A stretch of 64,000 bases of DNA from the human T2T-CHM13v2.0 reference genome, Homo sapiens: the NCBI RefSeq assembly GCF_009914755.1, contig NC_060947.1; one strand, 5' to 3'. The notes below the pieces were generated by a model. It searched no databases and was not told where the DNA came from. It was given only the letters and a program-made list of their open reading frames with translations. Below are positions 53,760-62,865 of this stretch, piece after piece. A program made the translations under genes and the position numbers. Each line of letters opens with the position of its first letter. Position 1 is the first letter of the stretch.

Positions 53760-55632
53760 AACTATAGTCACTCTGTCTGCTATTGACATTATAATTTATT
53801 CCTTCTTTCTAACTATATGTTTGTACCCATTAAACAACCACTCTTCATCTTCCCTCCTTCACCAAGCCTCTGGCATCTATCATTCTATTCTTTACCTCCA
53901 TGAGATCAAATTTTTTACTTGCCACATATGAGTGAGAACATGTGGTATTTGTCTTTCTGTGCCTAGTTTATTTCACTTAACATAATGACCTCCAGTTAAA
54001 TCCATGTTGCTGCAAATGAAAGAATTTCATTCATTTTTATGGCCAATTAGTATTCCACTGTGTAAATATACCACATTTTCTTTATCCATTCATCCATTGG
54101 TGGATACTTAGGTTGATTCCATATCTTTGCTATTGTGGATAGTGCTGCAATAAACATAGGAGTGCATGCATTTTTTAAAAATTTTTATCTTATTGATTGA
54201 TACTATTTTACATATTTATGAGGTACATGTGAGTATTTGTTACATGCAAAGAACTTGTAATGAGATATCATGGTATTTGGGGTACCCATAATAATGACTA
54301 TTTATCATTTCTTTGTGTTGGGAATATTTCAAGTCCTTTTGTCTAGCTATGTTGAAATATGCAATATGTATTCCTAACTATAGTGACCCTACTCAGCCAT
54401 AGAAAATTAGAACTTATTTCCTCCATCTAAGTGAAAGCTTGTTCTCACCAACCAAACTCTCCTTTTCCCCCCCCACCACTTAAACATATGGATATTCAAT
54501 TTTCCCGGCACCATTTATTGAAGAGAGTGCTTATTTCTCCAATGTATGGTCTTGGTACCATTGTCAAAAATCGATTGGCTGTAAATACATGCATTCATTT
54601 CTTTTTTTTTTATTCTGTTTCATTGGTCTATGTGTTTGTTTTTATCCCAATACGATGATTTTTAATTACTCTAACCTTGTAACATATTTTGAAGTTAGGT
54701 ACTGTATTACTTCTAGTTTTGTTCTTTTTGCTCAGGATTACTCTGGCTATTCTGAATCTTGTTTGTTCTGTGACATTTTAGGAATTTTTTTCTATTTCTG
54801 CAAAAAATGGAATTGATATTTTGATAAAGAATACGTTAAATGTATGGTTTGCTTTGGGTCTTACGGTTGTTTTGATGATAATTCTTCCAATCCATAAGCA
54901 TGGAGTGTCTCTTCATTTTTTGGGCTCTCTTCAATGTCTTTCATTAGACTTTAGTAGTTTTCCTTATGGAGGTTTTTCACCTCCTTTGCTAAATTTATTA
55001 CTAGGTATTTTTATTTTTTTAGCTATTGTAAGTGGGATTGCCTTCTTAATTTATTTCTTAGCTAGTTTATTATTAGTATAAAGAAACACGACTGATTTGT
55101 ATGTTAATTTCATATCTGGAGACTTTACTAAATTTATCAGATATAAGTGTATTGGTGGAGTTTTTAGGTTTTTCTAGATGTAAGATCATGTCATCAACAA
55201 AGATAGACAATTTAATTTTCTATTTTAAAGTTTGGATGTCTTTTATTATTTTTTCTTGCCTGAGTGCTCTGGTTTGGAATTCCAGTATTATGTTGAATAT
55301 AAGTGGTGAAAGTTGACATCCTTGCCTTGTTCCAGTTCTCAGAGAAGAGTCCACGTAGTCTTTATTTGTTGAGGTATGTTCCTTCTGTGCCTCGTTTGTT
55401 GAGAGTTTCTATCATGGAGGGATATTGAATTTTATTGACTGCTTTTTCTGCAACTTGAGAGATAATCATATGGCTTTTATTCTTCTTTCCATTGATTTGA
55501 TGTATCATATTTATTGATTTGGGTATGTTGAATCACCCTTGCATCCCTGGGATAAACCCCACTTGACCATGCTGTATCATTTTTTTCATGTGATATTGAA
55601 TTTGATTTGCTAGTATTTTGTTAAGAATTTTT
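53760..55632 (-). mobile_element. Old L1MA elements (two 3' ends; ORF2), left part of the chimera's host
   Basis: Antisense L1MA 3'UTR at 53760-54170 and 54175-54470; antisense ORF2 to gtattttgttaagaattttt. Confidence 0.8.
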
Positions 55633-56122
55633 CGCGAAGGCCCGCGGCGGGTGTTGATGCGATGTGATTTCTGCCCAGTGCTCTGAATGTCAAAGTGAAG
55701 AAATTCAATGAAGCGCGGTAAACGGCAGGAGTAACTATGACTCTCTTAAGGTAGCCAAATGCCTCGTCATCTAATTAGTGAGGCGCATGAATGGATGAAC
55801 GAGATTCCCACTGTCCCTACCTACTATCCAGCGAAACCACAGCCAAGGGAACGGACTTGGCGGAATCAGCGGGGAAAGAAGGCCCTGTTGAGCTTGACTC
55901 TAGTCTGGCACGGTGAAGAGACGTGAGAGGTGTAGAATAAGTGGGAGGCCCCCGGCGCCCCCCGGTGTCCCCGCGAGGGGTCCAGGGCGGGATCTGCCGG
56001 CCCTGCGGGCCGCTGGTGAAATACCACTACTCTGATCGTTTTTTCACTGACCCGGTGAGGCGGGGGCGGGGGGCGAGCCCTGAGGGGCTCTCGCTTCTGG
56101 CGCCAAGCGCCCGGCCGCACGC
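55633..56122 (+). rRNA. RNA28S: 28S rRNA internal fragment (retroposed pseudogene, domain IV to start of domain V)
   Basis: Conserved LSU sequence gtaactatgactctcttaaggtagccaaatgcctcgtcatctaattagtga and gggaaagaaggccctgttgagcttgactctag; GC-rich expansion segments; several CpG-decay substitutions. Confidence 0.97.
55741..55755 (+). other. I-PpoI homing endonuclease site / R2 retrotransposon insertion site
   Basis: Exact CTCTCTTAAGGTAGC. Confidence 0.95.
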
Positions 56123-60324: not shown

Positions 60325-62865
60325 AAGAATTTTTGCATCTGTGTTCATTAGGGATATTGGTCTTGATTCATTTTCTTTTTTTGTCGTGTTCATGTCTGGT
60401 TTTGGTATCAGAGTAATGCTGAACTCATAGAATGAGATAGGAAGAATTCCATCCTCTTTAACTTTTTGGAATAATTTGAGAAGAATTAATATTAGCTTTT
60501 CTTTAGAAGTTTGGTAGAATTTGGCAATGAAGTAATCTAGTCCTGGACTTTTCTTGATCGGGAGACTTTTTCTTACTGATTCATACTTCCTACCCATTAT
60601 AAGTCTTTTCAGGTTTTCTGTTTCTTCCTGATTCAATCTTGTTAGGTTGTATATGTACAGAAATGTACACATTTCTTCTAGGTTTTTCAGTTTAGTGTAT
60701 AGTTTTCATAATAGTATCTGATAATCTTTTGTATTTTTGTGATATCAGTTGTAATGTTCCCTTTTCAGTTCTGATTTATCTACTTGGGTCATCTTTCTTT
60801 TTGCTCTTGGCTAGTCTAGCAAATGGTTTGTTAATTTTGTTTATTGTTTCAAAAACCAATATTATTAATGTTTTGGGGTTTTTTTGTCTATATTTCATGT
60901 ATTTCTTCTCTGATCTTTATTATTTCTTTCCATCTACTAATTTGGAGTATGGCTTGTTCTTGCCTTTCTAGTTCCTTGAAGAGTAGTATTTGAGATGTTT
61001 TTACTTTTTGGTTGGAGACATTAACTGTTATAAAATTCCCTGTTAACACTGCTTTTCCTACATCCCATAGGCTTTGGTATATTGTGTTTCTATTTTCATT
61101 TGTTTCATTATACATATTTAATTTTCTTTTTAATTTCTTCCTCAGCCCAAAGGTCATTCATGAGTATGTTGGTTAATTTTCACATATTTGTACAGTTTCC
61201 AAAGTTTATCTTGTTATTGATTTCTACTTTTATTCTATTGTAGTTTGAGAAAATACTTGATATGATTTCAATTGTAGAAAATTTGTCAAGGCTTATTCTA
61301 TGTCTTACCATACAGCTTATCCTGGAAAATGTTCCATGTTCTGATGAAAAGAATGTGAATTCTGTAGCTGTTGGATAAAATGTTCTCAAAATGTGTGTTA
61401 GGTCCATTTGATCTTATGTGTAGTTTAAATCCAATGTTTCTTTGTTATTTTTATGTCGAAGTAATCTGTATAATTTAAAAGTGGGGTGTTGAAGTCCCCA
61501 ACTATTATTATATGGGAGTCTATCTCTCCCTTTAAATCTAATTATATTTTTTATATATCTGAGTGTTCTGGCATTGGGTGTACATATGTTTAGAAATGTT
61601 ATAACCTCTTGCTGAATTAATCCCTTTATTATTATATAATGACCTACATTCCTTGTCTCTATTTTTTTAAATTTTTGACTTAAAGTCTCTTTGATATACA
61701 AATAGCTACTCCTGCTTGTTTTGGGTTTTCATTTGCATGCATTTTCATTTTCTATCCCTTTATTTTCATTCTATATGTATTTTTATGTGTGAGATGAGGT
61801 TCTTGTAGGCAGCATATTGTTGGGTAATTTTTTTTTACTAATTCAGCTAGTCTATGTCTTCTAAGTAGAATGTTTAAGCCATTTACATTTAAGGTTATTA
61901 TTGATGTGTGAGGGCCTATATCTCTCACTTTATTAATTTGTTTCTGGTTGTTTTGTATGTTCTTTTTTTCTTTCTCTCTTATTGTTCATCACTGTGGTTT
62001 GGTAGTTTTCTGTAATGGTAACCTTTGAATGCCATTTTCTTTCTCACTTTTGTGTTTGCTCTATGAGTTGGCTTTATACTTTTGTGTGTTTTTATTATGA
62101 TATTGTTCTTTTGCTTCCATATGCAGGCCTCTCTTAAACATTTCTTGTAGTTGGTCTAGTGGTGGTGAATTCTTTCAGCTTTTGCTTGTCTGGGATAAAC
62201 TTATTTTTCCTTCATTTATAGTGGGGAGGGTGGGGTTGCTTTCAGTGGCAGCATTCATAGTCAGGTGGCTGAGGAATACACACTTCAGCCCTAGGGGGTG
62301 GCTATAAATGGAGAAACCTTCCTCAGGGTGGGTTAAATGAGTGGTTGCCTTGCTACTGGAAGCCATGGTGGCATCACTGCCAATGGCTCATGCTTCAGCC
62401 CTAGTGACAGCATCCAGCAGTGGTGCCTGGCTTTGTGCAGAGGATATTAATGGGGCTCCAAAATGTGGAGATGTAGGGGTTTTGGGGTCCCATGGCAGAA
62501 TGCAATCTGGTGAGGCCTGGGATTTCAATATGGCACCTTGTTGTAGCTGCTTAGGACTCAGGAAATGTGTGGGATCCAATGTGAGTTTCCTCTCTGGAGC
62601 AACATTGTTGTGTGGTTCCTAGGCAGTTCCCTATCTTACCACCAGGGCCCATGTGGGTTAAGGAACTCTCCTATGACTGGAATTGCAAGAGTAGGAAGTG
62701 GGAATGTGGACTGCTGGGAGTCACTCACTTACCCTTTCCCCACACTGAGGAGCCTCACTAGGCTCCCAGTTAATCCCAGCTGAGCAGGCTGCCTGTCTTG
62801 TCTGTCCTTTCTTGCCTTAGGTGTTTGCCGTCACTTCTCTATTGAATTCCAGCCTTCTCTCTTAG
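60325..62865 (-). mobile_element. Old L1MA continuation (ORF2 5' half, ORF1 end, then 5'UTR-like sequence)
   Basis: Resumes the host exactly (aagaattttt|gcatctgtgttcat); minus ORF 60286-60672 [13 protein letters not shown]. Confidence 0.8.

What the first reader, a model, noticed from the sequence alone, without database searches (positions are those of the whole stretch)
55623..60334. 28S rRNA-LINE-1 chimeric retrotranscript inserted as one TSD-flanked unit
Seen: TT|AAGAATTTTT, then 490 bp of sense 28S rRNA (55633-56122), joined with no spacer to sense L1 beginning near the end of ORF1 (56123), then ORF2, 3'UTR, A tail and AAGAATTTTT again. The flanks rejoin seamlessly into an older antisense L1. 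There is no A tail or TSD between rRNA and L1, and the target fits the L1 endonuclease TT/AAAA consensus. Known: U6-L1 and other small-RNA-L1 chimeras form by template switching during target-primed reverse transcription or by RtcB ligation of a 2',3'-cyclic-phosphate RNA to L1 RNA. Inference: here the partner is an internal, doubly truncated piece of ribosomal RNA ending in a GC-rich expansion segment, with no junction microhomology against the consensus sequences as I recall them. This suggests a cleaved rRNA fragment, possibly from a ribosome on the L1 mRNA, was ligated or captured. The chimera class is known; the large internal 28S partner is the unusual part, and I cannot establish novelty without a search.
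Basis: partly seen in the sequence, partly recalled or inferred. Interest (0 to 1): 0.82.

Follow-up and report, generated by a model that had tools for sequence, protein, structure and literature searches.

The report
Known 28S rRNA–LINE-1 chimeric insertion
A piece of ribosomal RNA and a LINE-1 element were copied into the human X chromosome together in one jump, but this type of fusion, and this very copy, were already catalogued in a 2026 paper.

Summary
A 10-bp duplication (AAGAATTTTT, 55623-55632 and 60325-60334) brackets three parts. These are 490 bp of sense 28S rRNA (55633-56122), a 5'-truncated L1 joined with no spacer (from 56123), and an A-rich tail. The flanks rejoin into one old antisense L1.

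It is not new. Law & Burns (Cell Genomics 2026, PMC13174262) describe 18 28S/LINE-1 chimeras. Their Table S3 has a matching row: chrX:109054119-109054600, LSU-rRNA 3636-4116, plus L1PA2. That row gives no target-site duplication.

I add three things:
- the duplication and the TT/AAGA cleavage site for this locus;
- the exact junction, with 0-1 nt of microhomology;
- the finding that both ends of the 28S piece recur to the nucleotide in independent insertions.

The 3' end C4159 is shared with chr1 and chr2 chimeras. The 5' end U3672/C3673 is shared with chr1, chr7, chr8, chr11 and a solo chr10 copy. The recurrent 3' ends sit at the last unpaired C of predicted loops.

This favours capture of a pre-formed rRNA fragment, by ligation or by an end-to-end template jump. 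It does not exclude switching onto exposed loops of intact rRNA. Ape orthologues could not be checked.

Novelty: the reader could not judge this. The class and this locus are in print (Law & Burns 2026, Table S3). The 'large internal 28S partner' is therefore no longer unusual. The paper even names 3,636-4,115 as the most often incorporated region.

Untested: the idea of a ribosome sitting on the L1 mRNA was not tested.

The parts
55623..55632 (+). 5' copy of the target-site duplication AAGAATTTTT. The preceding bases are TT, so the cleavage site is TT/AAGA. The last T could also be 28S U3672.
55633..56122 (+). Sense copy of 28S rRNA nt 3673-4159 of the CHM13 rDNA copy. This is about 3637-4115/6 in the 5,035-nt numbering used by Dfam and Taoka. 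It ends in the loop of a GC-rich expansion-segment hairpin.
   Evidence: 14 substitutions in 485 aligned bases (2.9%), 7 of them CpG-decay type.
56123..56201 (+). L1 starts here: the last 25 codons of ORF1 plus the stop (TAA 56199-56201). It is joined to 28S with no spacer.
56265..60092 (+). L1 ORF2, 1275 codons, interrupted by one in-frame stop at codon 156.
60093..60297 (+). L1 3' UTR, ending in AATAAA.
60298..60324 (+). A-rich tail (A runs broken by C). Its border with the TSD is ambiguous by up to 2 nt.
60325..60334 (+). 3' copy of the target-site duplication AAGAATTTTT.
55400..55622 (-). Older antisense L1 (ORF2 region) that received the insertion, left part. Only this stretch was tested.
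   Evidence: minus-strand match to young-L1 positions 1994->1762, 75.5% identity.
60335..60694 (-). Same older antisense L1, right part. It continues exactly where the left part stops.
   Evidence: minus-strand match 1770->1405, 71.2% identity.

Best explanation
This is one L1PA2 retrotransposition event.

Shown from the sequence:
- The L1 endonuclease nicked the bottom strand at TT/AAGA inside an old antisense L1.
- ORF2p primed on the L1 poly(A) tail and copied L1 RNA back to a point 76 nt before the ORF1 stop.
- The cDNA then continues without a break into 28S rRNA, from C4159 back to U3672/C3673.
- The 4.7-kb product is bracketed by a 10-bp target-site duplication.

Inferred:
- The 28S partner was a pre-existing, discrete fragment of about 487 nt from contemporary rRNA. 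Its 3' end lay after the last unpaired C of an exposed GC-rich hairpin loop.
- It was joined to a broken L1 RNA in one of two ways. Either the RNAs were ligated before reverse transcription (the RtcB-type route proposed for U6/L1), or ORF2p jumped from the end of the L1 template onto the 3' end of the fragment.

The insert is now inert. ORF2 carries a stop and no gene is annotated nearby.
For: Single event:
- One TSD encloses both parts. There is no A-tail or TSD at the inner junction, and the flanks are contiguous.
- hg38, as tabulated by Law & Burns, shows the same adjacency on chrX. The junction is therefore not an artefact of one assembly.

The two parts are the same age:
- The 28S piece carries two length variants of the expansion segment that match present-day rDNA. 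Six older copies (chr1 L1PA5; chr7, chr8, chr11, chr2 L1PA3; solo chr10) share other variants where they cover those sites.
- Divergence from rDNA rises with L1 subfamily age: 2.9% for PA2, 4.0-7.1% for PA3, 8.4% for PA5.

Discrete fragment (loci were not selected by their 3' ends):
- C4159 is the 28S 3' end in chrX, chr1 and chr2. The L1 join points differ (positions 1, about 65 and 2359 of the chrX L1), and so do the TSDs.
- C4048 is the 3' end in both chr8 and chr11, with join points 2512 and 859.
- The same piece of about 50 nt (4077/4081 to 4129/4130) occurs once sense (chr14) and once antisense (chr2:117.4 Mb).
- chr1 carries exactly the same 3673-4159 piece as chrX.
- At about 4076-4081, one fragment ends (chr7, C4079) and three begin. 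Products on both sides of one site are what a cut would give.
- Junction microhomology is 0 nt in chr7, chr8, chr11, chr2 and chr1, and 0-1 nt in chrX.

Position of the ends:
- In a fold of the region, C4048 and C4159 are the last loop nucleotide, C4129 lies in a 2-nt bulge, and C4079 lies in a long unpaired run.

5' end:
- 4 of the 7 non-rDNA copies known to hold an internal 24-mer (6 listed, plus chrX) start at 3672-3674.
- No modification is listed between positions 3618 and 3674 of the 5,035-nt numbering in the stretch of Taoka 2018's table that one search returned. The offset of 36 is fixed by 28 of 28 sites. A modification-induced reverse-transcriptase stop is therefore unlikely.
Against: - Ape orthologues could not be examined. 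The paper's own timing test did not call this locus (found_by_msa_prediction = 0).
- The most frequent 2',3'-cyclic-phosphate sites in HeLa 28S do not include any of these ends, and expansion segments were 'largely resistant' (Cooper 2014, main-text passages). The listed sites are AG409, GU432, CA1699, UG2055, GC2083, GA2093, GU2097, AA2396, UG2427, AU4512 and UA4729.
- For tailless retropseudogenes with recurrent ends in single-stranded regions, Noll 2015 found no matching truncated RNAs and preferred internal priming.
- The shared 5' end lies 3-4 bp inside a predicted helix, not in a loop.
- The bases before the 5' ends (U/A, G, G, G) do not fit a pyrimidine-specific cut.
- The copies starting at 3672/3, and at 4077-4081, were found with patterns that select such starts. 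Those counts are by construction.
- One chimera (chr8:21.87 Mb, L1PA8) joins within a shared GATA, inside a 9-of-10 similar stretch. That looks like homology-guided switching.
- The hg38 annotation gives 482 bp for the 28S part against 490 bp here. This is unresolved.
Confidence: 0.65

Rival explanations
1. Same single TPRT event, but the partner was intact or long 28S rRNA. ORF2p switched from L1 RNA onto exposed unpaired loops at internal sites. Synthesis then ended at a preferred stop near 3672/3673.
For: - The recurrent 3' ends are the 3'-most unpaired nucleotide of predicted loops or bulges. An incoming cDNA end could dock there.
- Noll 2015 argued for internal priming at single-stranded regions and found no truncated RNAs.
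- HeLa cyclic-phosphate maps do not show these sites.
- One chimera (chr8:21.87 Mb) has clear junction microhomology.
Against: - Microhomology is 0 nt at 5 of the 6 junctions with recurrent ends.
- A fixed 5' stop inside a helix has no listed modification to explain it.
- The same piece of about 50 nt appears in both orientations with the same two ends.
- Fragments both end and begin at about 4076-4081.
Confidence: 0.27
2. Two separate insertions: a 28S retrocopy and an L1 that landed side by side at different times.
For: The paper's alignment-based timing test did not call this locus as contemporaneous.
Against: - The only TSD encloses both parts.
- The 28S piece has no A-tail or TSD of its own.
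- The L1 has no 5' TSD copy at 56122/56123.
- The expansion-segment variants and the divergence of the 28S piece fit the young L1.
- The same architecture, with its own TSD, is seen in chr7, chr8 and chr2.
Confidence: 0.04
3. DNA-level joining: a separately made 28S cDNA was captured as filler when the 5' end of the L1 cDNA was repaired by end joining.
For: The outcome would look the same as a template jump. L1 5' junctions are known, from my own knowledge, to pick up filler.
Against: - It does not explain why the same 28S ends recur.
- It does not explain why most 28S pieces are in sense orientation: 83% in Law & Burns, and 8 of the 9 chimeras examined here.
Confidence: 0.03

Closest known systems
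[quoted passage not shown]
   Same: This locus matches the row chrX:109054591-109058794 L1PA2 + chrX:109054119-109054600 LSU-rRNA_Hsa:3636-4116 in five respects: chromosome, orientation, L1 length (4204 vs 4202 bp), 28S span, and being the only chrX row. The paper already notes the frequent start near 3,636, the 83% sense bias, and ligation or template switching as possible routes.
   Different: Nothing differs in kind. The row has no TSD or cleavage-site entry and was found by proximity only. I add the TSD, the exact junction and nucleotide-level recurrence of the 3' ends. The RepeatMasker coordinates partly hide that recurrence: 4116, 4115 and 4125 for what is one end. The identity of the hg38 and CHM13 loci is inferred, not aligned. 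For chr7, chr8 and chr2, the TSD sequences printed in the table match what I read.
U6/LINE-1 chimeric retrotranscripts
   Same: A non-L1 RNA lies in sense orientation directly 5' of a 5'-truncated L1. One TSD encloses both, there is no inner A-tail, and junction homology is little or none. The same two formation routes are discussed (passage; details recalled).
   Different: U6 is a whole small RNA with a natural 2',3'-cyclic phosphate 3' end (Cooper 2014 passage). Here the partner is an internal 487-nt piece of a 5-kb Pol I transcript. Both of its ends must first be made.
Tailless retropseudogenes (Noll et al. 2015, PMC5322556)
   Same: They are L1-made copies of structured RNAs whose ends fall at defined single-stranded positions. 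Ten 5'-truncated 28S cases are listed.
   Different: They have no attached L1 and no A-tail, and they are primed directly from the target. The authors favour internal priming over pre-cut RNAs.
tRNA-half/LINE-1 and 5S/LINE-1 chimeras (same paper)
   Same: Recurrent fragments of abundant non-coding RNAs are fused to L1.
   Different: Those are mostly antisense, suggesting twin priming. This locus is sense. One antisense 28S case was seen here (chr2:117.4 Mb).

Membership tests
LINE-1 chimeric retrotranscript (28S rRNA/L1 type) | Non-L1 RNA-derived sequence abuts the 5' end of a 5'-truncated L1 with no spacer | tested here: met
   28S ends at 56122 and L1 starts at 56123.
LINE-1 chimeric retrotranscript (28S rRNA/L1 type) | One target-site duplication encloses both parts | tested here: met
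   AAGAATTTTT at 55623-55632 and 60325-60334. The 10-mer is expected 1.29 times in the whole window.
LINE-1 chimeric retrotranscript (28S rRNA/L1 type) | Poly(A) only at the 3' end; no A-tail or TSD at the inner junction | tested here: met
LINE-1 chimeric retrotranscript (28S rRNA/L1 type) | Target fits the L1 endonuclease site | tested here: met
   TT/AAGA. The paper's table scores the same site as an EN motif for its chr7 row.
LINE-1 chimeric retrotranscript (28S rRNA/L1 type) | Both parts arrive together in species comparisons (empty orthologous site) | not testable with these tools
   No primate genomes are held. The paper's flag found_by_msa_prediction is 0 for this row. Indirect support: the expansion-segment variants and divergence of the 28S piece fit the L1PA2 age.
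LINE-1 chimeric retrotranscript (28S rRNA/L1 type) | The partner is truly 28S rRNA sequence | tested here: met
   Rfam RF02543, 256 bits. 96% identity to rDNA units of the same genome.
L1 5' transduction | Full-length L1 carrying upstream genomic sequence of its source locus | tested here: not met
   The L1 lacks its 5' UTR and nearly all of ORF1. The extra sequence is rRNA.
Twin-priming inversion | The 5' segment is inverted relative to the L1 3' segment | tested here: not met
   Both parts are on the + strand.

The most novel reading that the evidence does not exclude
The 28S partners of L1 chimeras are a small set of discrete rRNA cleavage products. Four features fit this:
- The 3' ends lie after a C at the 3' edge of exposed loops: C4048, C4129, C4159, and C4079 in an open stretch. 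Three of the four are C^G.
- The 5' end is common, at U3672/C3673.
- The same 487-nt piece was captured at least twice, about 10 million years or more apart (L1PA5 on chr1, L1PA2 on chrX).
- L1 break points of 3 of the 8 sense chimeras examined fall within about 135 nt around the ORF1 stop and the ORF2 start.

The last point hints that joining happens where ribosomes sit on L1 mRNA. If so, fossil insertions would record germline rRNA cleavage sites.
Probability: 0.3. Interest if true: 0.55.

Novelty: already known. Interest (0 to 1): 0.27.

Why it matters
As a discovery it does not matter much, because the class and the locus are published.

Its remaining value is mechanistic. Independent insertions that share the same rRNA ends to the nucleotide are a natural record of which RNA ends the L1 machinery met in the germline. 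They can help decide between RNA ligation, an end-to-end template jump and internal switching.

The ends named here give precise, testable positions for RNA end-mapping experiments.

Tried and rejected
- Ape orthologue or empty-site test: no primate genome is held, so it was not done.
- Match to cyclic-phosphate sites: the prominent HeLa 28S sites in Cooper 2014 do not coincide with any end found here. Its supplementary tables were not read.
- RNase L: no U precedes C4048 or C4159 in the required place. Cooper 2014 saw no RNase L-dependent 28S site.
- Reverse-transcriptase stop at a modified base for the 5' end: none is listed within 3619-3673 of the 5,035-nt numbering in the stretch of Taoka 2018's table that one search returned.
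- The rRNA fragment of Jung 2020 is from ITS2 and ES7L, so it is not relevant.
- Sperm rRNA cleavage (Johnson 2011) and sperm 28S small RNAs (Chu 2017): these papers are not held.
- Angiogenin cutting rRNA into 100-500-nt pieces: this is recalled. A 1988 review holds the phrases in the search listing, but the passage could not be read.
- A long two-anchor pattern to find the chr1 locus was not accepted. A shorter 22-place pattern found it. Of its 15 matches (control 5), I fetched 12. Only 1 had 28S homology.
- The chr6 row of the paper (L1MA9, 3636-3900) and the rows starting at 254 were not located in this genome.
- The L1 subfamily was not tested here. L1PA2 is the paper's RepeatMasker label.
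Full report
**1. What is there**

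AAGAATTTTT occurs at 55623-55632 and again at 60325-60334. The 10-mer has 3 matches in the 64-kb window on both strands, against 1.29 expected from shuffles. Finding it exactly at both ends of the insert is therefore not chance.

Between the two copies lie three parts:
- 490 bp of sense 28S rRNA;
- a 5'-truncated L1, joined with no spacer;
- an A-rich tail of about 27 nt.

Rfam finds LSU_rRNA_eukarya at 256 bits, E 1e-66. Its reported span, 55293-56353, runs over into both flanks.

A search of the window's own genome returned the locus itself and 39 rDNA units at 96% identity over query bases 10-500. Forty of 339 candidates were scored. blastn against one fetched rDNA unit (L009) gives 473/493 identities with 7 gap positions. 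Window 55632-56122 equals L009 4468-4955. Rfam places the 28S gene at L009 797-5879. The piece is therefore 28S nt 3672/3673-4159 of that 5,083-nt copy.

**2. The L1 part and the flanks**

- L1 begins at 56123, 76 nt before the ORF1 stop (TAA at 56199-56201).
- ORF2 runs 56265-60092, 1275 codons with one in-frame stop at codon 156.
- The left flank 55400-55632 aligns on the minus strand to positions 1994->1762 of the young L1.
- The right flank 60326-60694 aligns to positions 1770->1405. Identity is 71-75%.
- The host is therefore one continuous old antisense L1, with the overlap being the TSD.
- The bases before the TSD are TT, giving a TT/AAGA cleavage site.

The 80-nt word across the 28S/L1 junction is unique in the genome. 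Every other hit covers only the L1 half (from query base 40) or only the rDNA half (to base 40). Forty of 241 candidates were scored.

Six of 7 other L1 copies read ...GCCCC|AAAAGAGC at this point. The C at 56122 could therefore come from either RNA, so microhomology is 0-1 nt.

**3. It is in print**

[quoted passage not shown] I read the outline, the passages that mention 28S in both versions, and parts of Table S3.

They report the following:
- There are 18 28S rRNA/LINE-1 chimeras.
- The median 28S length is 269 nt, with a range of 50-482 nt.
- 83% are in sense orientation.
- The authors suggest RNA ligation or template switching, and 28S-derived small RNAs as a possible source.

Table S3 has the row chrX:109054591-109058794 L1PA2 with chrX:109054119-109054600 LSU-rRNA_Hsa:3636-4116. 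It was found by proximity, not by their timing test, and it has no TSD entry.

Several features match this locus:
- It is on the same chromosome and in the same orientation.
- The L1 length is 4204 bp against 4202 bp here.
- The 28S span is the same.
- It is the only chrX row.

The identity of the two loci is inferred, because hg38 is not held. The 28S length is 482 bp in the table against 490 bp here, and I cannot resolve that.

The offset between the paper's 5,035-nt numbering and the CHM13 copy is 36 in this region. This is fixed by 28 of 28 modification sites from Taoka 2018 landing on the right base.

**4. Other loci with the same ends**

*How they were found.* A pattern for the first 25 nt of the piece, which also demands a mismatch to rDNA four bases upstream, found 4 places in the genome (control 0): chr7, chr8, chr11 and this one. 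A shorter pattern found 15 places (control 5). I fetched 12 of them, and only chr1:237.01 Mb had 28S homology. These five loci start at U3672/C3673 by construction of the patterns.

*A less biased count.* An internal 24-mer has 227 matches, of which 100 were listed. Six of the listed ones lie outside the rDNA contigs. Of those six plus chrX, 4 of 7 start at 3672-3674: chr7, chr8, chrX and a solo chr10 copy with an A-rich tail and no young L1. The others start at 3902, 3907 or far upstream.

*The exact 5' ends.* chr1 and chr8 start at C3673, since the flank mismatches U3672. chr7 starts at U3672 or earlier. chrX, chr11 and chr10 are ambiguous within 1-3 nt.

*The 3' ends, which the patterns did not select.*

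| 28S 3' end | Loci | L1 join point (chrX L1 numbering) |
|---|---|---|
| C4159 | chrX, chr1 (L1PA5), chr2:78.7 Mb (L1PA3) | 1, about 65, 2359 |
| C4048 | chr8, chr11 | 2512, 859 |
| C4079 | chr7 | 2792 |
| C4129 / G4130 | chr14 (sense), chr2:117.4 Mb (antisense) | about 128-139; about 3831 (inverted join) |

- Each of chrX, chr7, chr8 and chr2:78.7 Mb has its own perfect TSD of 10-17 bp.
- chr1 and chr11 have imperfect TSDs. chr14 has none that I could find.
- The chr2:117.4 Mb antisense case is not among the 18 rows of the paper's LSU sheet.
- RepeatMasker gives 4116, 4115 and 4125 for the three C4159 ends. This partly hides that they are one end.
- Junction microhomology is 0 nt in chr7, chr8, chr11, chr2 and chr1.
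- An L1PA8 chimera (chr8:21.87 Mb) is different. It joins inside a shared GATA within a 9-of-10 similar stretch.

**5. Where the ends lie in the RNA**

In a fold of 28S 4010-4194:
- C4048 and C4159 are the last nucleotide of hairpin loops (UGC and CGCGC).
- C4129 lies in a 2-nt bulge.
- C4079 lies in a long unpaired run.

The fold as a whole is no better than shuffles (z = -1.4), so only the local GC hairpins should be trusted.

All four distinct 3' ends are C, and three are C^G. C makes up 28% of this stretch and CG 9% of its dinucleotides. That is suggestive of a pyrimidine-specific cut leaving a cyclic phosphate, but it is post hoc and n = 4.

The 5' end lies 3-4 bp inside a helix that both the fold and the Rfam consensus predict. 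The bases before the 5' ends are not pyrimidines in 3 of 4 sites.

**6. Age**

Substitutions against rDNA are as follows:

| Copy | L1 subfamily | Substitutions vs rDNA |
|---|---|---|
| chrX | L1PA2 | 2.9% (7 of 14 CpG-decay type) |
| chr7, chr8, chr11, chr2 | L1PA3 | 4.0-7.1% |
| chr1 | L1PA5 | 8.4% |
| chr10 | solo copy | 12.9% |

chrX shares two expansion-segment length variants, and the GGCCCTGC form, with present-day rDNA. The older copies share other forms where they cover those sites. The 5-nt 'insertion' in chrX is also present in the chr2 copy, so it is an old allele and not a later mutation.

The template was therefore contemporary rRNA, and the 28S piece is as young as its L1.

**7. 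Reading**

The single-event chimera is secure.

The recurrence of both ends favours a pre-formed rRNA fragment. The arguments are:
- the ends are independent of the L1 break point, the target and the age;
- the same small piece occurs in both orientations;
- products are found on both sides of the 4076-4081 zone.

Such a fragment would be joined to broken L1 RNA by ligation, or used as the acceptor of an end-to-end jump.

Several results argue against this reading:
- The HeLa cyclic-phosphate map does not show these sites.
- Noll 2015 argued for internal priming.
- The 5' end lies inside a helix.
- One junction is homology-guided.

I cannot separate ligation from an end-to-end jump.

**8. Verdict**

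The new details are incremental.

Noticed in passing
window 55922-55925 (28S CATG; CHM13-28S 3963-3966); also L022, L024, L025, L028: 5 of 7 independent 28S retrocopies covering this palindromic CATG are changed to a CpG. It reads CGTG in chrX and chr2:78.7 Mb, and CACG in chr7, chr11 and chr10. It is unchanged in chr1 and chr8. No rDNA copy of the genome has either variant, and no rRNA modification is listed there in the part of Taoka 2018's table that I saw. I have no explanation.
   Followed up: partly
window 56123; L032 about 840; L031 about 367: L1 break points of 3 of the 8 sense 28S/L1 chimeras examined lie within about 135 nt around the ORF1 stop and ORF2 start. chrX is 76 nt before the stop, chr1 about 11 nt before it, and chr14 about 10-15 nt before the ORF2 ATG. 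None of the 21 tRNA/L1 rows in Table S3 has an L1 length in 4045-4204 bp. This is post hoc and the numbers are small.
   Followed up: partly
L030 (G000:C2:117442800-117446800), about 362-778: A 372-bp L1 3' end on the minus strand abuts a plus-strand 28S piece (4077-4130), with a 2-nt AT overlap. This is an inverted, twin-priming-like 28S/L1 chimera. It is not among the 18 rows of the paper's LSU sheet.
   Followed up: partly
L028 (G000:C10:50550300-50553300, reverse strand), about 1141-1522: A solo 28S retrocopy (3673/4 to about 4063) is followed by an A-rich stretch, with no young L1 next to it. It has the same 5' end as the chimeras. That end is therefore a property of the rRNA template, not of the L1 junction.
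   Followed up: partly
window 56104-56122 vs L1 copies (e.g. L013): The last 14 nt or so of the 28S piece (GCCCGGCCGCACGC) resemble the L1 sequence that normally precedes the join (ACCAGGCCTGCCCC), matching at 8 of 14 positions. This probably explains why RepeatMasker's L1 and LSU annotations overlap by 10 bp in the paper's table. It also explains an 88% hit over query bases 24-80. The similarity lies on the wrong side of the junction to guide a template switch.
   Followed up: yes
window 55293-56353: The Rfam hit span overshoots the true 28S piece by 340 bp on the left and 231 bp on the right. The model was threaded through the flanks at low posterior probability.
   Followed up: yes
L026 (G000:C2:132714500-132717500): A long, 77%-identical stretch covers 28S 2343-5010 on chr2. 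It looks like an old DNA-level rDNA copy rather than a retrocopy.
   Followed up: no
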